A stretch of 64,000 bases of DNA from Styela clava (taxonomy: Eukaryota). The DNA is taken from contig NC_135261.1 in NCBI RefSeq assembly GCF_964204865.1, positions 9,982,001 through 10,046,000 of the forward strand. Direction: 5' to 3'. Position numbers and translations under genes: made by a program. How positions within the stretch are numbered: position 1 is the first letter of the stretch; every line of letters starts with the position of its first letter. Positions 20,698 through 60,773 of this stretch are shown piece by piece. The notes below the pieces were generated by a model. It searched no databases. It was not told the origin of the DNA and was given only the letters and a program-made list of their open reading frames with translations.

Positions 20698-23600
20698 ATG
20701 GTTAACAAGACAGTAATCGCAGCTGCAGTAGTAACGTTATTGGCTATCGCTTGTTATCTCATAGCTCTTGCGACGCCCAATTGGGCATATTCTGCGAAAA
20801 CTGGGGCATCAATTGGTTTATTTCAGATCTGTGGAGTGAATTCTGCTACTGGTGGTTGTGTTCCTTCGCAAGGTACGTTGTGACATATTTATGCTAGAAA
20901 GTTTAAACAAAAACAATCAATATTGAATCACCATGTCTGATGTTGTTTTATTGGTTGAATCTACTTATTTGCTAGGCTCTACTAAATACCTATGAATCAT
21001 GAGAGTTATTTACGACCCAGCAAATAGTGGTTGGGGCGAAGCATGAAGCAGTCCAGGTCATTATAAACATAAAAACAAATAAGGTGTAATGAATTTTACA
21101 TATAATAACTGAAATTCAGGGTGAAACTTTTTGACAGAATATAGACTACAAAAGTAGGCTTACCATACGTCCCGGTTTAGCCGGGACAGTCCCGGTTTTG
21201 ACGAGCTGTCCCGGCGTCCCGGCCGGTTGACTCAAATGTCCCGGTTTGTCAGCACGGCTGTCATGGGTGAAAAATTCATATTCCTTATTGGTACAAATTT
21301 TTTTTATTGGTGGCAGCCCATTTACCACTGTTTTGCGACACACTTCGCTAGTTCAGAGAGTAAAAAATTGCTCTATTGTTATGTCACAATCGGTATATGT
21401 TTTAATGCGTTTTCTGGCGTTAACTACAATGCCGTTAAGTTGACGAAATGCCATAAAAAAGTACAAACTTTCTAATGAGTTGAAAGGAGATTTTCCTTAT
21501 TTTGCGCAAACTGAAGGAGGAAAGGTACACTGTACGCATTGCAGATCTGTTTTTCTATTAGTCAAGACGGTCGTTCTGATGTCAACGATCATATCCAAAG
21601 CAGGAAGCACAAAACATTGAGGCATCGACTCGACTGACCAATTTTTTGCGATAACAAATTCGGATGATTCTTTGTCGTTGGCAGCCGACATTTGCCTATC
21701 ACACAAAGTTTTGACTGCACCTCTGAATTAATTTTAATTTTTTTAGCCTAAATTTGCATTAACTTGTAAATATACACAGTTAGAATTTCTGATGTCCGCT
21801 GTCTGATAAGCGGATTCGCTGATTTTGCACGTTTAGCCAGAAATAAATGAGAGTCGATGTTTTTAATTGAATTGCTCCGCTGTTCTCCTCTGAACCTAAT
21901 GATGATTTACTTTAGACCAGTTTCGTATCAGTAACCTTCGATGCATCAAACAGAAAGAATTTAAAGCTTGTTCCAGTTGTGGTTCGTTATTTTTTTACCT
22001 GATGTTTGTTGCGCTCGATTCTATGTAGCCTGGTTACTTCTCACGCACATTAAGAGATTGGAGACTTCAAAAACGCGTCCCAATACCCCAGTCCTGACCC
22101 CAAACCTATATCGGTTAATTGTTACAACTAGTCCGTGCTTTCAAGCAATTAAAGTCTGTAAACAGCGGTTAAAGTGCCGCCAGATTCTTCTGTGCCTTTC
22201 AAGTGCTGCCCCAATATAATTCAACTTGAAATCGGTGAATATCTTTAATAACAATCAACAGACACTTCAAATCAAATCTCGAACATGAATCAGGAAATTA
22301 GAACTTGTCGGGTACCGGAAACGGAATGTTGTTAATGGAACGTAACGTAACTCTTGATACCGGGTATGAGGAACGTAAAGGAACGTTGTTAATGGAACGC
22401 AAAGGAACGGTTTTCTGCCAAAATAATAGATAAAACTAAATAGCTTATATGGCACAATTAATCGAATATAACAGTATTACCATTTTTACAAGCAATAACA
22501 ATTCACATTAATTAGCAGATAACCATATGTCACAATTATGTACAGATTAAATCACATAGGATAAAATAGTATTCACAATACCAAATACAGAATAAATCAT
22601 ACAAGATAAAACAATATTTACATACCGAATGTTTAGGATCTCCAGGCAACTCAATTCAACAAATTATAATCCAAAGTAAATACAAATTAACTTATGTGAC
22701 TAAATACAAGAAACAGCATTTATCATTCTATTTGGACTATATTACAACCCTAACCTGTATCCCTACATTATATTACAACTCCAGTATAAACCGTTGATTT
22801 TAAACCCAATTAATAACTTCAATTCGAATCGTTTATCCTAACCGCGAATAGTAAACCCAATATTAAACACGATAAACAACTACTAGCGCAATAGATTACA
22901 CTGGATACAAGACAGAAGGTGCCAACTCATCGAAGCAGCGTGGCGATAATTTAGAATTCCCGGGATTAATCGAGAAACAGGACTCTGTCGCAATAATGCT
23001 GCGTCGATACGTTTGCAACGTCTGCGTAACAACGTAAAACGTCATCAAATTAGAAACACGTTATGATTCTCGCTAACATTCCCCGCCCCAAATGTAGGAA
23101 CGAAGAGAATACATCTTACAATTCAAAAAGAAAAAGTGAGAATCATCACAAATAAGTAATACAACTAACAATGAATTACTCATCAGCTCTCTGAATCATA
23201 CAAAGTTTTGCTATTGGTCTTCTTAAAAACCCATGAGAAGTTTTGACAGTCACTTGTCTGACAGCTCCAAATTTGTCTGGTATAACTTCCATAATTCTGC
23301 CAGTCAACCACTTCCCTCTTGGTATTGTGTTGTCAACCAGTAACACAAGATCATTGACTTTGAAATTGTCTTCCTTCTTCAACCATTTATGTCGAGCTTG
23401 TAGATTGACAAGTACTTCTCTGGACCATCTTATCCAGAATTGGTCAGCCAAATATTGTATTTGACGCCATCTTCTTCTCGCATAACAATCTTTCTTGTCA
23501 AATATTCCTGGTGGTAAATTTGCTTTATGCTTCAGCAACAATAAATGATTTGGTGAAAGTGGTTCTTCATCCAAAGGATCCATACTAATAGGTGTAAGTG

Positions 23601-26600
23601 GTCTTGAATTCAATTGACTTTCAACTTCACAAAATATAGTAGACAACGCTTCATCAGTAACCAATTGATCATGCAATAATGCAGTCAATATCTTTCTTGC
23701 TGATCTGATGAGTCTTTCATAGAAACCTCCAAAGTGTGAAGCTGTGGGAGGATTGAACTTGAATATGATATCACTTTGTCTGCAAAATTCTCCCATTTTA
23801 CTGGAATTCCAAATTTGAATTTCTTTCTTCAATACTTTATTTCCAGCTGTAAAATTGCTCCCATTATCACAAATAATGGTTGACATCTTGCCTCTTCTGG
23901 CAATGAATCTTCTTAATCCATTAATAAATGAATTGACATCCATACTATGCACAATTTCCAAATGCACTGCTCTAGTTGTTGCACAGGTTATTATCAAGCC
24001 CCATCTCTTCACAGAACTTCTTCCTTGCTTCACCAACAACGGTCCGAAGTTGTCAACTCCAACACATGTGAATGGTGGTTGATCTGGTGTCACACGCTCT
24101 TTAGGTAGGTCAGCCATAAATTGCTTACCCATCGAAGCATTTCTCTTTTTGCAAAAAATGCAATTACGAATATTTCGCTTTACAACAACAGCTCCATTGA
24201 TAATCCAGAACTTCTGTCTCAGCAAATTCCACGTATGACTTGCTCCACAATGATGTGAACTTTTATGGTATTCTCTGACAATCAACTGTGTGATGTGATG
24301 GTTACTTGGCAGTATTATTGGATGTTTCAAATCAAATTCTATGGGTGCGTTTTGCAATCTTCCACCCACTCTCAATATTCCATTAATTAAAACAGGATTC
24401 AACTTTTGCATTGAAGGTGCAATTTTCAAATTTCTAAGCACACTTTTTCCTTGTACATCAGAATTTTGTAACTTTGCAATAACTTTATTCAACTCACAAT
24501 TTTGTAAATACTTTATCAGCTCATTTTCGGATCTTCTCAACTCTTCTGTTTGCAATTCACCCTTTTGAACAGTTGGTTTAGCTTGTAAATAAATTTTGAA
24601 TCTGATAATCCATGCTGTAGCTTTCTTCAACTTATACCATGAAGAATAATAGTTGATGAACTTGTCCAATGGTTCATTCTCTGTCACTAGATTAATTAGG
24701 ACATTCATTGGCTTTTTCTGAATAAATTCCAATGGTAAATGTGGTAACTTAACTGGCATTTGTGGCCAGTTCTCTTCATTCTGGTAGAGAAATTCTGGTC
24801 CTTGTAACCATGATTTCTTTGCAATCAATTTCTTTGCTGTCATTCCACGGGATGCATAATCCGCTGGGTTCAATTCACTTGGAACATAACGCCATTGATG
24901 TGGCTCTGAACCTTCTTCAATTTTTGCTAATCGGTTAGCTATGAAAGTAGGAAATCTTTTCGACGAATTGTAAATTGATTGGATAGTAGCTGTGCTATCA
25001 CTCCAGAATATAGACTTAACATTCTTCTCAAATTTTAATTGACGTCTTAAAAACATATCCACTCGCACACAAAGCGCAGCAGCTGTAATTTCCAGCCGTG
25101 GAAGTGAACATATTGTCTTGATAGGACACAATCTTGATTTTCCAAGTAAAAATGAACAGTGTATTTGACCGTTTTCATCTGATAACCTCAAATATGAAAC
25201 TGATCCATAGGCAACTTGTGATGCATCGCCAAAATGATGTAATTCTTGTGAAACAATAACCCCAAATGAATTCGGTTTAATGTATCTTGGTAATTTGACT
25301 TCTGATAATTCTGGAATTGCTTTAGTCCAGCTTTCCCATGCTATTTGTTCATTTTCTCCGATAGTTTCATCCCATCCCAATTGTTGGCGACATAACTCTT
25401 GGAATATAAGTCTTGCTTGCAATATCACAGGTGATACAATACCCATGGGATCGAATACGGAACTTAAAATTGCTAGAACTCCTCTTTTCGTATCAGGTTT
25501 TGGCTTCAGCTTTGTATTGAATCCAAAGCAATCTTCTACCACGAACCACACAACTCCCAAAACTCGTTCAACACGATTTGGGTCTAAATTTACGTTCGCT
25601 TGAATTTGTGCTCTATCCTTTTCTGGAACACAAGAAATAATTTCTTCTGAATTACTCCTCCATTTGTTTAAATGAAAACCTCCACATTCAGTAAGTTCTG
25701 AGGTTTGCTTGACAATTCTCTTCCCTTCAGATATACTATCTGCTCCAAGTAGGAAGTCATCTATATATGAATTATCTTTGATATTGTCACTTATATCTGA
25801 TGGGAAGTCTTTTCCAAAATCCTCTGCAGTTCTCCTTAAACAGTAATTTGCACAAAATGGACTTGATGTATTTCCAAAACAATGCACTAACATCTGATGA
25901 TCGACAGGAGTTTTTGTCAAATCTCCATCAGGCCAAAATAGGAATCTCAATGCATCAACATCCCTAGGCGTTACACGAGCTTGTAAGAACATAGCCTCTA
26001 TATCTGCAGTTATACCATATTTGTACATTCTGAAACGTAGCAAAACAGATAACAATCCATTTGCCATATCTGGACCTTGCAGTAATTGATCATTCAGTGA
26101 TGTGTTCAAATATCTTGCACCTGCATCAAATACCAGGCGTACTTTACCAGGTTTCTGTTCTGATGTAACGGGTTGATGAGGAAGATACCACGCTTTACCA
26201 ATGGGTGCTTCAAATTCAGCAGCAGGAATTTTCCTTGCCAATCCTTTCTTTATAAATTCCGCCATGGTACTGCAATATTTGTCCCTTAAAACATCATTCC
26301 TCAACAAGCGTTTTCCCAAATTGTTGGTTCTTCTCATAACTGCATCACGATTATTAGGAAATTCAGGACATCCTGGTTTCCATGGTAACGAAGATTGGTA
26401 ATGTCCATCCACCATTTTTATATTATCTTCCATCAGTTGTAATGCATACTTATCTTCTCTTGACAATGTTGGTGTGGGAGTCAATGATATATCTTTAAAA
26501 TCCGTTTCCCACATCTCTCGAATTTGTTGTTGAAGATCTTCTCTTTTCACTTCAGCAAGATTTACTTGTACATGAAAACTTTCATTCCGAGAAGCTTTAT

Positions 26601-29600
26601 TAAAGGCAGGCCCGACCAGTGACCAACCAAGAATACTTCTTTTTGCAACTGGTTCATTTGTAGTACCACGCCTTTCATTTTTTTTTTTTTTACCCAGAAT
26701 ACTTCAGGTACGTACATTCACGCCAATCATGAGCATCACTCTTTCATCTGGTAATTTTGGAAATTCAATACCCTCGAGATATTCATGCCTTTGTAATTCA
26801 ATCCTTTTAGGTAATTTATTTGGTACTGTCGGAATTTCATCCACAGTGAGCACACGATGTAATGTCACACAACCTTCCCCTTTCAGTGGTTTAACAGTTA
26901 AGTCAAGAGCGAATCCATCTTGTTTCTGTGGATTCGGTGTGTTTACAGTAGTAATGGAATAACTCATTGGTTCACCATCCATCTCTAAAAGTTCCATCAA
27001 TCTTTTATCACATAGACAAGAGGTGCTTCCCTCGTCTAGGAAACAGTATACTTCAATTTCTCTACCTTGAGGTGAGGATACTTTCACTGGAACTATATTC
27101 AAGTATACTCCAGCTGAATTTCTGGTATAGTTTGTTAAGGTCGATCCCGATGTAGCAGTTTGAGTAGCGGAACTTGTACTTTGCTCTTTTCGCTTAGTAT
27201 CTGCAACATTTCGATGAAGCATTCTATGATGTCTGCCACCACATCCTCTCTCAGTACATGCAGGATTCTTACGACATTGCCGTGCCATATGACCAATGTA
27301 TAAACAGTTTCTGCAAATATGAAATTCACGAATTGTAGCCTCGCGTTCACTTGCAGATTTTCTTTCAAACTCTGGACAATGAATAAGAAAATGATCTTTT
27401 GAACAGATAACACATCTGTATCTATTTCTCACAAATGTACCTTTTTTCTCGGTAGATTGTTCAGGTTTGCCATCACCACTTGTTGAAGTAGAATTTGCAT
27501 AAATTCTCTTCTTTTGAGGGTGTTTAGCCTTTTCCCTCTCTTTATGAGCTCTCATAGCTTTGCCCATCGATGATTGTGCCGTAATTGCTGCTTTCTTGAC
27601 AAACTTTAAAAGATGTTCAAATTTTAGTTCAATGTTTCTATTCTCATAATCTGCTGCCTCTTCTTCCCATTTATTATGGTACTTCAGGGGTAATCTACAT
27701 GAAAGTTGCGCAATATTGTCAAAATTATTTAGATCTGAATATTGCTTCCAATGCGACAGCGTTAGGTAACATTCTTCCATTTTATGAGAAAGATCCAGAA
27801 GACTATCTCGATCATCTGGTTTCAACATTGGACCATGTACCAACTCTTCCATATAAGTTCTGGCAATCAACAATGGTCTTCCGTAAGCTTCTCTTAGAAG
27901 TCTCTTTGCTAAAGTCAATCCTTCTGTAGGAGGATATACAGAACATTGACGAATCAATTCTCTTGCTTTACCTTTGCAAAACTGTTGCAAGTAAGTAAGT
28001 CTCAGATTGTCATCTGAAATCTTGTTCTCAATATTTATCCTGAAACTATTCATGAATCTTGTATATTCTTCATGAGAACCATGAAACGAAAGTAATTCTG
28101 GTTTAGGTAAATCTACCATGTCACGCATTGTAGATGTCATAGTAGCAAGAATTGAGCCAACATCTTGTGATGGCATATTAGGTACTTCTACAGGACTCAC
28201 CAAATTAGCCTGTCTCATTCCACCTTGTCTAGTTCGAAATTCTTGATTAACGGGATTCATCACTTCCGCTACCACTTCCTGGACCGGATCCAGGGATAAT
28301 CTAACTTGTGGCTCTCTAGGAGGCACAATACAATTGGTTTGACCCACTTGAGGTGTGTTTACTTCAGCCCGTGCTGCTTCACATTCTACCAATTGTGCTA
28401 TCGGTGGTCCAGAATCTATTTCTTGAAACTGTACCCTTTCATTGCGATTAGAGCTTCTTTCCCACACTTCAGCCTCTACACATGCGGCTTGATATTCGTG
28501 TATAGCTTGTAATCGCCTTATTTCTCTCTCCGATGCTGATTTTATTTCTTGAGCTTTTCGCTTCTTTTCTTCAGCTCGCTGATTCATTTCTTCAGCTTGC
28601 TGGTTTATTTCTTCAGTATTTCGTTCAGCCTGTTCCAACTCTGACAGTTGCTTCATTTTCAATTTTGCAAGTTCTCTGACAGCTATTGCCTCAGTTCTCT
28701 TGTAACTGGAACTTGTACTTTTGTAACTCGATGCTGTCCTTGCAGATCGAGGTCTTGACATATTAGATGATTTTCTACTAGCTATAGATTGTGGTTTTGA
28801 TGGAGGATTCTCAACGATTTGTGTGCTTTCTTGTCTGGAAAGCCACTCTTCAACATGTGCTTTGAACTCTTCATATCCATAACTTCCTCTCTGGAAAGAT
28901 TCTTTAGCTACTCTTTGAGCCTCTTCATCTACTGGCAGTTCTGCAACATGTACTTCATAAGCTTTAGAATACTCCACAAACATTGCATCTATTTCTTTTA
29001 CTTGGGAGTGTAGAATCTCCTTATTTCTTGGATTCAACATCAATTCTTCTGCTGATCTATACTGACCATTCAGATCAGCCAATAAACGTTCCAGTTCTTC
29101 TTGTGAAACTGGTTTTGCAGCCATTTCGACTTTTAAGTGACTTTCTTCACTCAATCTAGGATCAATTGAAAAGTTTGATATCTTTCAATTGCTGCTTACA
29201 ATACTCTGGTTTGATTTCGAAATAGAAAACTTCAGTTTTCCTTCATTCGAAAACTTTATTGTTGCGCTCGATTCTATGTAGCCTGGTTACTTCTCACGCA
29301 CATTAAGAGATTGGAGACTTCAAAAACGCGTCCCAGTACCCCAGTCCTGACCCCAAACCTATATCGGTTAATTGTTACAACTAGTCCGTGCTTTCAAGCA
29401 ATTAAAGTCTGTAAACAGCGGTTAAAGTGCCGCCAGATTCTTCTGTGCCTTTCAAGTGCTGCCCCAATATAATTCAACTTGAAATCGGTGAATATCTTTA
29501 ATAACAATCAACAGACACTTCAAATCAAATCTCGAACATGAATCAGGAAATTAGAACTTGTCGGGTACCGGAAACGGAACGTTGTTAATGGAACGTAACG

Positions 29601-32600
29601 TAACTCTTGATACCGGGTATGAGGAACGTAAAGGAACGTTGTTAATGGAACGCAAAGGAACGGTTTTCTGCCAAAATAATAGATAAAACTAAATAGCTTA
29701 TATGGCACAATTAATCGAATATAACAGTATTACCATTTTTACAAGCAATAACAATTCACATTAATTAGCAGATAACCATATGTCACAATTATGTACAGAT
29801 TAAATCACATAGGATAAAATAGTATTCACAATACCAAATACAGAATAAATCATACAAGATAAAACAATATTTACATACCGAATGTTTAGGATCTCCAGGC
29901 AACTCAATTCAACAAATTATAATCCAAAGTAAATACAAATTAACTTATGTGACTAAATACAAGAAACAGCATTTATCAGGGTCTCCCTAAAACCAGGCAC
30001 TTGCGAATTCAGGCACTTTTTCAGGCACCATTTCAGGCACTTTGATATTTTTTTATTTTTACCGTACGTCATTGGGGTTTCCAATTTACCTGACAAGATA
30101 ATTAGACTTTAAATAATTTTTTACATCCCTATATTGCAATAAAACAATATTATTTCCAATTTATTAGAGTATAAATAATTTTTCAATATTAAAATGTGGC
30201 AACATTGATTACAAAATACAGAAATCAGGCACTTGTGAAATTTCAGGCACTTGGTCAAAACCTATCTTACAATGTATCTGATTACTCTAAAGCAGAAAAT
30301 TAAATATATACACTTTGTATGGTTGAATTTACAACATTTTGGTAAAATACAATACCGTTTGTGACTGATGGAGACGTGTCATATTTCGCAAGTGCCTGAT
30401 TTTTTATTTTTCTCGGTGACAGTTGCCATATTTTTTCGCAATTATTTTCTTAAATTATTTGCGTCAGCACTTACTATTCTTTGCTTTCTAACGCAAATTC
30501 ATTGTTCCACAACAATTTGAGCGTTTTTAATATTGCAATGAGCATTACCATTTGACAACATATGGTCAACCATCGTACTTTCTGGATTTATTTGAAATTG
30601 AATATGAATAATAAAATCTGGCAACCTTAAGCACAAAATACTAAAACCAGGCACTTGTGAAATTTCAGGCACTTCGTAAAAATCTATTTCTCGATGTTTT
30701 TACTTACTTTGAAGCAGAAAACTAAAATATACACTCTTTTGTATGATTTAAATGACGTCTTTTTGGTAAAAAGCAAGAACGATTGGGACTGGTGATGAGG
30801 GGTCAAATTTCGCAAGTGCCTGATTTTTCATTTTTTTCGATAACAGTTGCCATATATTTTCGCAACAATTTTTCTAAATTATTTGAGTCAGAACTTACTA
30901 ATCATTGCTTTTTAAAATAAATTCCTAGTTGTACAACAATTTCAGCGTTTTTAAAATGAGCAATATTATTTGACAACATATAATTAACCATCGTACTTTT
31001 TGAATTTATTTGAAATTGAATAGGAATGATAAAATCTGGCAACCGCAAACACAAAATACTAAAACCAGGCACTTGTGAAATTTCAGGCACTCTGTAAAAA
31101 CCTATTTCTCGATGTTTTTACTTACTTTGAAGCAGCAAACAAAAATATACACTCTTTTGTATGATTGAAATGACGTCTTTTTTGGTAAAAAAGAAAAACG
31201 ACTGGGACTTGTGATGAGGGGTCAAATTTCGCAAGTGCCTGATTTTTCATTTTTTTCGATTACAGTTGCCATATATTTTTGCAATACTTTTCATAAAATC
31301 ATTTTCGTCAGAACTTAGTACTTACTATACTTTGCTTTCTCGGTAAAATGTTTTTAAGACAATCCGATGAATATTGAGTGCTATTCTTATTGCTAATTTC
31401 AATTCGACGTCTGCCCGAAGATGGTGCAAGTATTTATATTTGAAGTGAGTAAATAGCTCTTCAAAACGCCCAAATGGAAGATTGAACAAGGCGGAGTCAA
31501 CAAAAATTCAATCACATTTGGAACGTTGTCGCACTGCATCGTCGCCACTCATATACTCTGACATTCCGATGCATGAATTTTGCTTTCTGGAAAATAATAA
31601 TTGGAGTGTCTGTTAAAGTGCGAACTGTATACGGGAGCACGTACAATACCAATGCTGCGTTTGCAAGCGTTGGTATCATGATACATGTGAGAAAGTATCG
31701 AAAGCGAAATTGTGGAAGTGTAAAATTTGTATTCGGTAAGTCGGTGTTGCAAATGTGGGTTATTTCAGGGCGCTCCCGTAGTAGCCTATGTGCTCCAAGA
31801 TGGCGCACAACCTAATACCTCTATCTTGGTACACATACTATGTTCGGGTTGTGTGCCAACTTTGTGCACATACTACGGGAGCACCATTTTCTGCACAACC
31901 TATTCTGATGCTCATTCGCGACATGAAGAAACTATACGCCCGACATATAAAAGTAGGAAAATATACACAAAACCTTTTCATGTTTAATTTCAGAACTGAC
32001 ATTTAAAATTTTCAATTCTTAGATCTGTGGTTTTACCTGATTGCAAGATACGTAAATCATATCATGTCAAAATAGAACAAATAGTAAGGATTTTCATTGG
32101 ATACTCAATATTTCTAATAATTTTCAAACTGAAAGCTTCGATTAGTGTTCACTCATACACTTCCTTTGTGAAGTGTTTTTAATGTTTTATCTCCTTAATA
32201 AATTTAAATTCAAATTTATATCCCCAATTACTGATGAAGAAAGATCTATAATCGAGAGTTCAATACGGCTTCTGTGACATTAAAAACATTTACTGTTTTA
32301 CGTTTTTATATATTTGCAACTTTTTGAATAACGCAAAAAAATTCGTTGACTGACTACTGGCGTGTTGAATATTGAAGGATTTTTATTGTAACATTCGTTT
32401 AACGATGCTTTTAAGCCTAACTTTGGGCATATCAGCTACCTGATGTCATTCGCCGAGCGAATTTTGTTTAGGTGACATTGCCATTTCGTATTTACCATCC
32501 TGTAGCCATTCTTCCTATTTAGGAACTACGTGTTTTACAGTTAGCTGTTACAGCATGAAATAATGTACAAATAATTCTACGTAAACTATCCATGAAATCC

Positions 32601-35600
32601 ATTCCATAAACTATCCATGAAAAGATATTACAGTCAGATCCTCAGGTTGTAAAGAATATTATACAACAGCAACAGCAAGTGATTGAATATCTTAATTGTA
32701 GCCGTGGTTGAACACCGCTGGTTGTCAATATAGATTTTGCACAGGCTTTTATACATTTTGTGAACGGTAAATTATGTTCTATTAGGGGATAATGTGACTT
32801 GGATACGTATTATAAAAGATTCTATACGACATAAGTCAATTGTTTCTGCTATGTAGTTTATATGAAGTCATAGGCCAAATTACATTATTGAAATCGTCGT
32901 CCGATAACAATTAAAACTGGAATTTCGAACTAATATTTTGCCAGAAGACAAATTAGGTTGTTTATAACGATGCGATTGCTACTACCTGGGTAATATATTA
33001 CGTCGAAATGTTTATAACAAATTAGAAGAAGTTTTGAACCAATTTCAAGGGTTCCGAACATTACTATAAAGATGTCGTCTGAATAACTAATATTCCCTAC
33101 AGATCTGTCAAATTTAAACCCGTATTTAAATAATACATATGTCATACTTTTGAATTAATAAAAATAAACAACACAATGTCATTCAAACTTTACAATATTC
33201 AAATAGTTTTGCAAAAGCGTGATCGGTTTAATTAAATACCGATTTCCGGATGTAGATACTGATGTTAAAAGTTTAATTCCATTTATGCTAAGTGGAGCTC
33301 TCATACAAACATTGACTTTTATAAAAAAACGCAATAGGGAAACAACATATAAAAAAAAAGACAAAAATTATAGAGATATGGCAACTACCATTGACAAAAC
33401 CAAAAAATCAGGCACTTGCTAAATTTGCCACATTCCTACCAGTGACAGTTCTTCTTGTTTTGGACAATAAAAATACCAAATTCAGTCATACAAAATATGT
33501 ATATTTGGATATTCGGCTTTAAAGTAATCAAAAACATCGGGAAATGGTTTTTTACAAAGTGCCTGAAATTTCACAAGTGCCCGATTTTAGTATTTTGTGC
33601 TTGCGGTTGCCAGATTTTATCGTTCCTATTCAATTTCAAATAAATCCAAAAAATACCACGGTTATCTATATGTTGTCAAATAATATTGCTCATTGTAAAA
33701 ACGCTGAAATTGTTGTAGAACTAGGAATTTATTTTAAAAAGCAACGATTAGTAAGTTCTGACGCAAATAATTTAGAAAAATTGTTGCAAAAATTTATGGC
33801 AACCGTTATCGAAAAAAATGAAAAATCAGGCACTTGCGAAATTTGACCCCTCATCACCAGTCCCAATCGTTTTTGTTTTTTACCAAAAAGACGTCATTTC
33901 AATCATACAAAAGAGTGTATATATTAGTTTTCTGCTTCAAAGTAAGTAAAAACATCGAGAAATATGTATTTACGAAATGCCTGGTTTTAGTATTTTGTGC
34001 TTGAGGTTGCCAGATTTTATTATTCATATTCAATTTCAAATAAATCCAGAAAGTACGATGGTTGACCATATGTTGTCAAATGGTATTGCTCATTGCAATA
34101 TTGAAAACGCTCAAATCTTTGTGGAACAATGAATTTGCGTTAGAAAGCAAAGAATAGTAAGTGCTGACGCAAATAATTTAAGAAAATAATTGCGAAAAAA
34201 TATGGCAACTGTCACCGAGAAAAATGAAAAATCAGGCACTTGCGAAATATGACACGTCTTCATCAGTCACAAACTGTATTGTATTTTACCAAAATGTTGT
34301 AAATTCAACCATACAAAGTGTATATATTTAATTTTCTGCTTTAGAGTAATCAGATACATTGTAAAATAGGTTATGACCAAGTGCCTGAAATTTCACAAGT
34401 GCCTAATTTCTATATTTTGTAATCAATGTTGCCACATTTTACTATTGAAAAATTATTTATACCCTAATAAATTGGAAATAATATTGTTTTATTGCAATAT
34501 AGGGATGCAAAAAATTATTTAAAGTCTAATTATCTTGTCAGTTAAATTGGAAAGCCCAATGACGTAAGGTAAAAATAAAAAATATCAAAGTGCCTGAAAT
34601 GGTGCCTGAAAAAGTGCCTGAATTCGCAAGTGCCTGGTTTTAGGGAGACCCATTTATCATTCTATTTGGACTATATTACAACCCTAACCTGTATCCCTAC
34701 ATTATATTACAACTCCAGTATAAACCGTTGATTTTAAACCCAATTAATAACTTCAATTCGAATCGTTTATCCTAACCGCGAATAGTAAACCCAATATTAA
34801 ACACGATGAACAACTACTAGCGCAATAGATTACACTGGATACAAGACAGAAGATGCCAACTCATCGAAGCAGCGTGACGATAATTTAGAATTCCCGGGAT
34901 TAATCGAGAAACAGGACTCTGTCGCAATAATGCTGCGTCGATACGTTTGCAACGTCTGCGTAACAACGTAAAACGTCATCAAATTAGAAACACGTTATGA
35001 TTCTCGCTAACAATGTTGGTGTGAAGATAAAACTATTAGAACTCAAATCTTTACCCAGGGAAACCGCCAAAACTTTTACTGAATACTTGCTCTCTTTGCT
35101 CTCAGCCGTTTTGACGATTATATTTTTTAAACTAAATTATATTATAACCTAACAAGTATATAATTCACAACTACTCGTTTAATGAGCCTATAATTTAATT
35201 ATAATTAGACAAATGGCAACAAAACGCAGAAAAATGATGCGAAGTGCAAAGGGTTCAATGGCGCTGAAAATATTCAAATGCAATTTTTTGCGATGCAATG
35301 AGGAAATAAATCTATATTCTATTCGAAAGATGTATTACTGCTTGATTTTTATTATAAAAAGTATCATTCGTTCGGTTTCAGCTTTCTAAAAATATGTACG
35401 GCTCGCCAATGACTCACAACCCTTAATTTTGTCCCGCGAACGACAAAAGGTTGCCGACCCCTGCCGTAGATGTCAGAGGTGAAGCTAAATTTGAAGGAAA
35501 AAGGGTGAAGAATGTTAATTCCGTCGCAATCACTTGTACTTCTGGAATCCTTGGAACGCTTTGGCGAAATCGATGTAACTGTATTTAAAAAGAATGTTTG

Positions 35601-58431: not shown

Positions 58432-59784
58432 TATGGTGGCCCATCGTTGTCACACGTAAAATTTAAAATAAAAATAAAAAACCGAAAATAAAAAAATAGT
58501 TGTGAAAAAAACATAAAAATAATTTGTCAACGTTGTCAGGCATAATCCTACGCGCACAAATGTGTTCCCTGGGTTTCCAACTCACTACTGATTTTCTTGA
58601 GCAATATTCAATATGAAAATGTTCTATAAATTCTCCATGCTACAAGTTCAACAAGAAGGAATATATTTATAATAATGATAAGAGAATATAAAATTGAATA
58701 CAAAAATTTGTTTTTACGTGTAGAAGGTAATTTAATTGGAGAATGCTGCTTAACTACTCAGTTGTCTGAACACTCGCGATGCCGGTACCGTACCGTCTTA
58801 CCAAATACCCGTAGTCGGTTATAGTCGCTTTGCGTCTGATCGTACCGGTAGTCATGCAATCACTCATGAAAGAATGGGAGATACGGATAGTCTCGTAGAA
58901 TATAGACTACTGAAACACTCTCTGCGCCTGCCCCATACCGTACAGCCGTAACGTACCGATCCAGACAAATGATAAATCGCCCGTGCTCAACCATTTATTC
59001 CTATTCATACCTCGACTCACTATATTCGACTAAGATCAAGGAATGGATTGAAATAAATGGTTGTGCACGAGCGATTTATCATTTGTCTGAATCGGTACGT
59101 TACGGCTGTACGGTATGGGGCAGGCGCAGAGAGTGTTTCAGTAGTCTATATTCTACGAGACTATCCGTATCTCCCATTCTTTCATGAGTGATTGCATGGG
59201 TACCAGTACGGTCAGACGGTACCGTACCGGCATCGCACGAGTGTCCAGACAACTGAGCAGTCAAGCAGCATTTTCCAATTAAACTACCTTATACACGTAA
59301 AAACAAATTTTTCGTATTCAATTCTATATTCTCTTATCATTATTATAAATATATTGCTTGTGGTTGAACTTGTAGCATGGAGAATTTATAGAACATTTTC
59401 ATGTTGAATTTATTGGATATAGCTCATGAAAATCAGTAGTGAGTTAGAAACCCAGGAAACACATTTGTGCGTGTAGGATTAAGCTTGACAACGTTGGTCC
59501 CAAGCAGCATCAAATTTTCTAAAAATAAAAACGCGTGACAACGATGGGCCACGAGGCGGACCATCGTTGTCAACCTTTTTGTTTTCTTTTTATCCAATTT
59601 TTTTTTTTAATTTTTTTTTTTTTCAGTTTTTTTTTCTTAAATTTTTTTTTTTACATTTAATAATTTTTTTGGTTTTTTTTTTTTTTTTCAATTATTTATA
59701 TGTTTTTTCACAACTATTTTTTTATTTTCGCTTTTTCATTTTATTTTTTATTAATTTTACGCGTGACAACGATGGGCCACCATA
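58432..59784. mobile_element. Palindromic non-autonomous DNA transposon, 1353 bp, 6-bp TSD (IS3EU-like termini)
   Basis: TIRs TATGGTGGCCCATCGTTGTCAC / GTGACAACGATGGGCCACCATA; TSD CTAATC (58426-58431, 59785-59790); empty site at ~50254. Internal inverted arms at ~58527-59015 and ~59035-59497. Confidence 0.88.
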
Positions 59785-60773
59785 CTAATCCTTTATACAT
59801 GACCCTGGTATATCAGAGCTAGACAATGATAGATAAGGGAATCCCCATGTGTGAGATGTCTTTTAGCAAACGAAAATATTGATTAGTAGAGCACAAACGA
59901 GATTAACGCAATGACTCACAAAAGTAGTATAGCTTTAAAAATATTCAACGATTTTTACAATTACCTATAAGCAAGTTACTATATAGTATGGCCAGGGCAT
60001 AATAATTATTGACACTCGTGCTACGGGAAAGTCGGAAGTTTCCTGACCGTTCCGTTCAGTGGACTAAGTAAAGTACTGTATATATAAGGTAAATTTTGAG
60101 TCCATATATTTTATCTTCGCTAAGTTGTTTGTATTTAACGAAACCCCATGCACACACTGATATGTACAAAACGTTTTTAACTTATATTATGCGTTGTTGT
60201 GTAACAATAACTTATTGGACACGAAACGGACCTATATATTGTATTGATATTATGTTGTTGTTAAAACTCATTAACTTGTTGTTATGAAAAAAATCCGCAT
60301 CACCATCCGCATACTTTTGTGGGCCTTATTACGCCAATGTGACGTCGAAATGACGTACTTTTTCGGTGATGTAGTCAGGTGGGGGTTAGGATTGGCATAT
60401 GCAAAAATTGTTGAGACAGGCCAACTAGATGTGCATGTGGTACTAAACTATACCGGTACCAGACCCCGTACCGGTACTGTGAAATACATCGAACGCACTA
60501 AAGATAGCTATCATCCTCGTATTGACGTGATTGTGGCGTAGCAGTGACGTAATTTTTAGATGACGTAGTCAGATGGGGGTCAGGGAAGACGTATGCAAAT
60601 AATGTTATACCACGCCTATTAGAAATACTTGTGGTACTAAACTGTAAACTGTAGCCATTCCGAAGTCTCAGCTTCGTCCAGGATATGGTTTCGGTTAAAA
60701 GAATTGGATATTCCATATTCATACTATATTGATATTTATGGATTAGAAGCATTGGACGTTACAATATAATAAA

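What the first reader, a model, noticed from the sequence alone, without database searches (positions are those of the whole stretch)
29979..34651. Recently mobile 4.7-kb foldback element with arms built from ~420-bp modules of a reiterated binding motif
Seen: inverted arms of ~1.3 kb. Each has a terminal cluster of four CAGGCAC motifs, then ~2.5 tandem ~420-bp units (left arm units start ~30226, ~30648, ~31066). Every unit carries two direct CAGGCACT sites and one inverted copy (TTTCGCAAGTGCCTG) ~150 bp away, so each unit is itself a mini inverted repeat. The TSD is perfect and the empty site is visible in the other LTR. The arms differ from each other visibly more than the two host LTRs do. 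Inference: an already diverged, non-coding element was moved very recently by a transposase encoded elsewhere. GGG termini with an 8/9-bp TSD suit Mutator/Foldback or Merlin rather than hAT. This is probably an undescribed family.
Basis: partly seen in the sequence, partly recalled or inferred. Interest (0 to 1): 0.7.

Follow-up and report, generated by a model that had tools for sequence, protein, structure and literature searches.

The report
Dead foldback transposon still being moved
This is a real 4.7-kb jumping-DNA element of a known Mutator/foldback kind that has lost all but a dead scrap of its own enzyme gene and sits inside a young retrotransposon, so it was likely moved there by an enzyme made elsewhere in the genome; the family appears undescribed but its design is ordinary.

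Summary
The element is real (window 29979-34651). It has 1.3-kb inverted arms of ~420-bp units and sits in one LTR of a BEL/Pao retrotransposon whose LTRs differ by 0.47%; the other LTR shows the empty site. It belongs to a family of roughly 30 copies (70 termini). Of 30 other paired copies, 23 have an exact 9-bp target duplication; unit number per arm runs from 1 to 7. It is not purely non-coding: 31371-31736 is the dead C-terminal/PHD end of a transposase gene, with the same two stops in all 22 copies aligned. A sister family shares the terminal AGGCAC layout and 9-bp duplications and encodes a MULE DDE-SWIM-Ulp1-PHD protein. A decayed copy with this family's own end plus a decayed MULE transposase lies on another contig. 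So this is a non-autonomous deletion derivative of a Rehavkus-type Mutator foldback; none of 5 Merlin loci checked resembles it. The arm differences were inherited, so 'old element, recent jump' holds. No intact family transposase was found in the assembly; the mobiliser is inferred. The scan noted related foldbacks in this genome before; a look-up with this arm found none.

The parts
29979..34651 (+). Whole non-autonomous foldback element (4,673 bp); + is the direction of its transposase remnant
29971..29978 (.). Left target-site duplication (8 bp; 9 bp from 29970 if the right end is read one C short)
34652..34659 (.). Right target-site duplication
29979..30045 (+). Left terminus: 9-bp near-palindromic GGG..CCC end motif followed by four AGGCAC sites; same spacing of the first site (base 17) as in the transposase-coding sister family
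30211..31317 (+). Left tandem array, period 418 bp, 2.6 copies; each unit has two direct and one inverted AGGCAC site
31371..31736 (+). Dead 3' end of a transposase gene (tail after the Ulp1 domain plus PHD finger), two in-frame stops shared by all 22 copies aligned
   Evidence: tblastn with sister protein P0002: 33% over 128 aa, E 4e-14, 62 bits vs best 28.5 in 200 shuffles
31340..33370 (.). Family-wide ~2-kb core, 91-100% identical in 24 near-full-length matches
31768..31888 (.). Short palindromic dispersed repeat embedded in the core (also found at many unrelated loci)
32705..33101 (.). Older ~400-bp dispersed repeat embedded in the core (~75% to solitary copies)
33376..34651 (-). Right arm, mirror of the left; middle unit lacks its direct-site pair
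29260..35012 (-). 5' LTR of the host BEL/Pao retrotransposon, interrupted by the element
22007..23078 (-). 3' LTR of the host retrotransposon, showing the empty site at about 22717-22725
23176..29184 (-). Host retrotransposon gag and pol frames (DUF1759; RT, Peptidase_A17, integrase, DUF5641); host 5-bp duplication at 22002-22006 and 35013-35017

Best explanation
The element is an internally deleted copy of a Mutator-superfamily foldback transposon, likely of the Rehavkus type, which keeps both long arms and a dead tail of its transposase gene and was likely inserted into one LTR of a young retrotransposon by a transposase supplied from elsewhere. Shown: family, duplications, remnant, sister family, order of nesting. 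Inferred: one founder lost the promoter and most of a transposase-Ulp1-PHD gene and was then amplified in trans; the transposase's N-terminal domain binds the AGGCAC sites, the terminal cluster positions the cut and the arm units add binding sites (by analogy with Muta1); cut-and-paste with a 9-bp staggered target cut; unit number changes by unequal recombination or slippage, and arms are sometimes homogenised by conversion. The mobiliser is either a family transposase absent from this haploid assembly or the sister family's enzyme.
For: 70 termini in G000, 0 for the reversed control. Exact 9-bp duplications in 23 of 28 other paired copies and in neither of 2 more pairs (one 7 of 9 alike, one none), so 23 of 30. 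Remnant matches the C-terminus of the sister protein and carries the same two stops in 22 of 22 cores. Sister element C16:19142566-19151654 (9,089 bp) has a 9-bp duplication, GGG ends, 24 of the first 31 bases and the four-motif layout in common; 10 of 15 further sister pairs have exact 9-bp duplications. Its protein aligns with 14 relatives, 13 of the 15 rows hit Pfam MULE, with D282, C367, E461 invariant and D347, H370, W419 nearly so, and carries Peptidase_C48. A decayed element at C4:13487977 has this family's own end (27 of 31 bases) followed about 3.2 kb later by a decayed MULE transposase; a second decayed locus on C13 runs from transposase and Ulp1 sequence into pieces of this core. 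Muta1 makes 8- or 9-bp duplications and its subterminal repeats raise binding and excision (PMC5225508, PMC5499845, passages).
Against: No intact transposase flanked by this family's ends was found: 47 of 47 candidates scored with the sister protein, 61 of 61 with its C-terminal part; the MULE profile search gave 82 hits, of which 20 were fetched, plus 36 more stretches around related hits. P0001 itself has no Pfam hit at E 0.05. The C4 element has no second arm in the stretches read, so its link between end and transposase rests on adjacency and orientation. 7 of 30 other pairs lack an exact 9-bp duplication. No binding or transposition was tested. Placement in Rehavkus proper was not tested by a tree.
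Confidence: 0.88

Rival explanations
1. Within the best explanation: the mobiliser is the sister (TAGGCAC) family's transposase, acting across families because the AGGCAC sites and their spacing from the end are conserved.
For: It is the only near-complete transposase found with similar ends; first motif at base 17 in both; its C16 copy is broken by a frameshift after the catalytic and SWIM parts, and reads or contigs of two other samples carry eight more bases there, which would keep one frame; both families have copies about 1% apart.
Against: The terminal 9 bases differ except GGG and one C, and the terminal motif affects binding in Muta1 (PMC5499845, passages); the base before AGGCAC is fixed differently in the two families; unit bodies are unrelated (scores 44-49 vs shuffles 43.5 +/- 6); the family's own decayed transposase is only 32-37% identical to the sister's; both sister coding copies are broken in this assembly.
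Confidence: 0.35
2. Within the best explanation: the mobiliser is the family's own transposase, which segregates in the population or lies in unassembled sequence.
For: Cut-and-paste masters are often low-copy and polymorphic (general knowledge); the direct donor of the window copy is also missing (nearest copies 1.2% away), so the assembly does not hold everything recently mobile.
Against: The only own-family transposase sequences found are heavily decayed; none of 32 database relatives matched the remnant or the C4 gene better than the sister protein did.
Confidence: 0.5
3. It is a Merlin or P/Galileo-type foldback.
For: Merlin transposases exist in the genome (17 hits); Galileo has long internally repetitive arms (PMC3573991, passages).
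Against: 5 of the 17 Merlin loci fetched show no match to the element and no motif arms; Galileo duplications are 7 bp; the remnant and the ends tie to MULE proteins.
Confidence: 0.03
4. The structure is an assembly artefact or a fold-back rearrangement.
For: Long inverted repeats can be mis-assembled; no long read was available to span this copy.
Against: Dispersed copies on 12 or more contigs, each with its own duplication; arms differ from each other in an inherited pattern; reads of another sample end at the same terminus with many different flanks.
Confidence: 0.02

Closest known systems
Rehavkus foldback DNA transposons (Repbase; described in PMC6446971 and bioRxiv 10.1101/2024.12.02.626372, passages read)
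   Same: 9-bp duplication, single ORF with a PHD finger, long inverted ends holding a variable number of tandem repeats.
   Different: Units here are ~420 bp and carry opposed binding-site candidates; arms reach 1-3 kb against 26-400 bp TIRs in the table of PMC6446971; that paper lists arthropods and annelids as hosts, while earlier scan notes call this genome a sea squirt (not tested). A Ulp1 domain in Rehavkus is recalled and stated in earlier notes, not seen in a paper (one search found none).
Muta1 of Aedes aegypti (PMC5225508, PMC5499845, passages read)
   Same: MULE type-2 foldback; 8- or 9-bp duplications; a near-palindromic GGG..CCC terminal motif that differs from this element's by one base; subterminal repeats; non-autonomous derivatives with variable repeat number.
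   Different: Muta1 has 145-bp TIRs with 12-bp repeats and a 504-aa transposase; no Ulp1 or PHD tail is described in the passages read.
Tm1 of root-knot nematodes (PMC3169594, passages read)
   Same: Mutator/Foldback family with composite variable-length TIRs, mostly 9-bp duplications, arms about 93% identical, mostly non-autonomous.
   Different: 14-bp repeats, asymmetric 7-bp ends, Phantom-type transposase.
Galileo of Drosophila (PMC3573991, passages read)
   Same: Arm length changes by gain and loss of ~210-bp tandem units; conversion among arms.
   Different: P-element superfamily, 7-bp duplication.

Membership tests
Mutator/MULE superfamily | 8-11-bp target-site duplication, mostly 9 | tested here: met
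   23 of 30 other paired copies exact 9 bp; window copy 8 or 9
Mutator/MULE superfamily | Long terminal inverted repeats with G/C-rich ends | tested here: met
Mutator/MULE superfamily | DDE transposase with (C/D)xxH and W motifs in an autonomous partner | tested here: met
   Met for the sister protein and, as decayed sequence, for the C4 locus with this family's end; the window copy itself has lost this part
Mutator/MULE superfamily | Transposition by hairpin-on-flank cut-and-paste | not testable with these tools
   Inferred from Muta1 (PMC5499845)
Rehavkus | 9-bp duplication | tested here: met
   table in PMC6446971
Rehavkus | Single ORF with PHD finger | tested here: met
   Remnant and sister C-terminus show the Cys/His pattern; the related intact 1,013-aa ORF at L090 hits Pfam PHD weakly, E 0.009, below the curated cut-off; P0002 itself has no PHD hit at E 0.05
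Rehavkus | Subterminal tandem repeats of variable number in long inverted ends | tested here: met
   1-7 units per arm in 22 copies; description in the Tribolium preprint
Rehavkus | Transposase groups with reference Rehavkus sequences in a tree | not testable with these tools
   No Repbase sequences are held
Merlin | IS1595-type transposase between matching ends | tested here: not met
   5 of 17 Merlin loci fetched, none matches the element; remnant is from a MULE-type gene
Galileo/P foldbacks | 7-bp duplication | tested here: not met
Described family in Repbase/Dfam | Full-length match to a library entry | not testable with these tools
   Libraries not held

The most novel reading that the evidence does not exclude
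The family's own transposase is extinct, and this dead derivative has survived by switching to a sister transposase only about one-third identical to its original one, because both read the same AGGCAC sites at the same distance from the end; the 1-7-unit arms would then be a natural series for testing how binding-site number lets a parasite capture a foreign transposase.
Probability: 0.3. Interest if true: 0.5.

Novelty: new member of a known kind. Interest (0 to 1): 0.3.

Why it matters
It is a well-documented, recently mobile Mutator foldback family in an animal group where MULEs are little described (PMC6446971 found limited evidence in chordates), with a dated nested insertion, a traceable origin by internal deletion and a candidate partner enzyme. 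That is useful for repeat annotation and offers a natural test of arm length against mobility and of cross-mobilisation. It does not show a new mechanism.

Tried and rejected
ORF scan of 29 paired copies: no transposase; long ORFs only in nested insertions. Other MULE families of the genome (L057, L058-63, L067-76, L087-89, L090) have different ends and no AGGCAC arms; part of the output was cut and was re-examined. Rfam: nothing at E 0.1. PDB profile search: only weak WRKY hits to the N-terminal domain, E 0.11-0.63, a hint and no more. A structure prediction of the sister transposase had not finished after six collections, so no fold search was made. Presence/absence: reads and contigs of three other runs show the empty retrotransposon site and one contig an empty LTR, but those samples differ from this assembly at fixed positions and the flank is itself multi-copy (depth about 30 where about 5 is expected), so this is inconclusive. 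No RNA holder on record was listed; two runs guessed to be RNA did not cover the sister ORF: no evidence on expression. The DNA search with the C4 decayed gene was swamped by an inserted repeat (40 of 2421 candidates scored) and adds nothing. Target-site base preference was not tallied, so it stays open. Literature: 'Rehavkus'+'Ulp1' 0 papers; 'ascidian'+'foldback'+'transposable element' 0; two searches listed no description of this family. A modular foldback in Ciona (Simmen and Bird 2000) is recalled only. One paper id was not held. One search timed out and was redone. Dropped rows: 6 copies with indels or nested inserts in the outer arm (L017, L032, L033, L038_31, L044, L045) were left out of the arm tree, leaving 17 of 23; copies without a full core were left out of the core tree, leaving 22 of 29.
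Full report
Observation. The element spans window 29979-34651. Its arms align at 91.5% over 1297 columns and hold a 418-bp tandem array. CAGGCAC occurs 22 times inside it and never in the other 59,327 bp of the window. It interrupts the 5' LTR of a minus-strand BEL/Pao retrotransposon (Pfam DUF1759, Peptidase_A17, rve, DUF5641) that has its own 5-bp duplication. The 3' LTR shows the empty site, and the LTRs differ at 5 of 1073 positions. Since only one LTR carries the element, it most likely arrived after the retrotransposon integrated (inference).

Family. The terminal pattern matches 70 times in G000 and the reversed control 0 times. The 2-kb core has 24 near-full-length matches at 91-100%, a lower bound because 40 of 1062 candidates were scored. 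Among 28 other paired copies 23 have an exact 9-bp duplication; two more pairs have 7 of 9 alike and none. The window copy reads as 8 bp with full ends, or 9 bp with one C lost from a C run. Similar one-base slips at G/C runs occur at L044, L127 and L128, and Muta1 makes both lengths (PMC5225508, passages). Copies run from 0.5 to 14.5 kb. Arms carry 2-7 units on the left and 1-6 on the right in 22 copies.

Origin. No copy encodes a transposase, so I searched the genome for MULE proteins and read 20 + 20 + 16 stretches around hits. Two loci had arms with a sister motif, TAGGCAC, in ~350-bp units. The complete one (C16:19142566-19151654) has a 9-bp duplication and shares 24 of the first 31 bases and the four-site layout with the window element. 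It encodes a MULE transposase with SWIM-like, Ulp1 and PHD-like parts in two frames. In an alignment with 14 relatives the D, D, CxxH, W and E positions are invariant or nearly so, and 13 of 15 rows hit Pfam MULE although P0001 itself does not. The (C/D)xxH and W signature is as described in PMC5499845 (passages). Reads (3 of 4) and contigs from two other samples carry eight more bases at the frameshift, which would leave one frame.

The C-terminal 124 residues of this sister protein match window 31371-31736, just inside the left arm and reading inward: 33% identity, E 4e-14, 62 bits against a best of 28.5 in 200 shuffles. The same two stops stand in all 22 cores aligned, so one dead founder was amplified. 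A decayed element at C4:13487977 begins with this family's end and is followed by a decayed MULE transposase 32-37% identical to the sister's, and a decayed locus on C13 passes from transposase and Ulp1 sequence into pieces of the core. No second arm was found for the C4 element. Together these make the element an internal-deletion derivative.

Arms. The window's left arm is nearest to the left arms of L025 and L012 (0.61%) and its right arm to the right arm of L025 (1.08%), while its two arms differ by 2.7%. In the related copies L011, L012 and L026 the right arm carries the left-arm haplotype (own arms 0.6-1.4% apart), which points to arm-to-arm conversion; such dynamics are discussed for Galileo (PMC3573991, passages). 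In most other copies left arms group with left and right with right. The tree used 17 of 23 copies. The nearest relatives of the window copy differ by 1.2%, more than the host LTRs do, so the direct donor is not in this assembly.

Mechanism. Shown: structure, family, duplications, remnant, nesting. Inferred from Muta1 (PMC5499845, passages): transposase binds the terminal motif and the repeated sites, more repeats give more binding and excision, and the cut leaves hairpins on the flanks. Muta1's terminal motif differs from this element's by one base. That AGGCAC is the binding site is inferred from its conservation between two families whose unit bodies are otherwise unrelated; CG-1 hits in 6 of 15 rows and weak WRKY hits hint at the binding domain. 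The mobiliser is unresolved. No intact own-family gene appeared among 47 of 47 and 61 of 61 scored candidates. The sister enzyme is a candidate, but its ends differ in the terminal 9 bases and both of its coding copies are broken here.

Comparison and novelty. The 9-bp duplication, PHD finger and tandem-repeat arms fit Rehavkus as described in PMC6446971 (passages) and a Tribolium preprint (passages); a tree against reference Rehavkus proteins could not be made. G-rich ends and long TIRs are common in arthropod MULEs (PMC13359780, passages), and Tm1 is a close structural parallel (PMC3169594, passages). Merlin is not supported. Two database proteins have the same MULE + Ulp1 layout. Earlier notes of this scan describe related broken foldbacks with the same protein layout in this genome; a look-up with this arm found none. 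Searches showed no description of this family, but Repbase and Dfam were not available. Verdict: real, a new member of a known kind, interest 0.3.

Noticed in passing
L043:3726-6509 (+), G000 C10: A 928-aa intronless ORF distantly related to the MULE transposases (25% to L057's) starts 40 bp after a family copy's end; no Pfam hit, no inverted repeats seen around it; a candidate domesticated transposase.
   Followed up: partly
L040:572, L081:512, L083:509, L041:8347-9362: Relic or short family ends lie within about 0.3-1.5 kb of long intronless ORFs that look like housekeeping genes (labels such as dihydrouridine synthase, PUF60, mitochondrial S15, leucyl-tRNA synthetase are from recall); fits a Mutator preference for gene starts, not quantified.
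   Followed up: no
L057, L058-L063, L067-L076, L087-L089, L090: At least five more Mutator families occur in this genome, several with foldback arms and with OTU, PHD or Ulp1 fusions and open ORFs of 900-1,000 aa.
   Followed up: partly
L091:5998-6097: A very high-copy short repeat (hundreds of times the depth of the neighbouring ORF) lies directly upstream of the sister transposase ORF.
   Followed up: no
window 38900-63960: Tandem array of short-chain dehydrogenase (DHRS4-like, label from recall) genes and fragments, repeat spacing about 8-10 kb.
   Followed up: no
window 58432-59790: Another inverted-repeat element (arms about 83% alike over 58528-59496) with a long T-rich tract.
   Followed up: no
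L151/L152 (G000 C1:16633000-16644000): An older subfamily of the sister element, about 78-83% identical in the arms, with PHD-tail remnants like the one in the window element.
   Followed up: partly
L090 and L092: Two related transposase genes in opposite orientation next to a 72-bp tandem array, at two loci (C6, C8).
   Followed up: no
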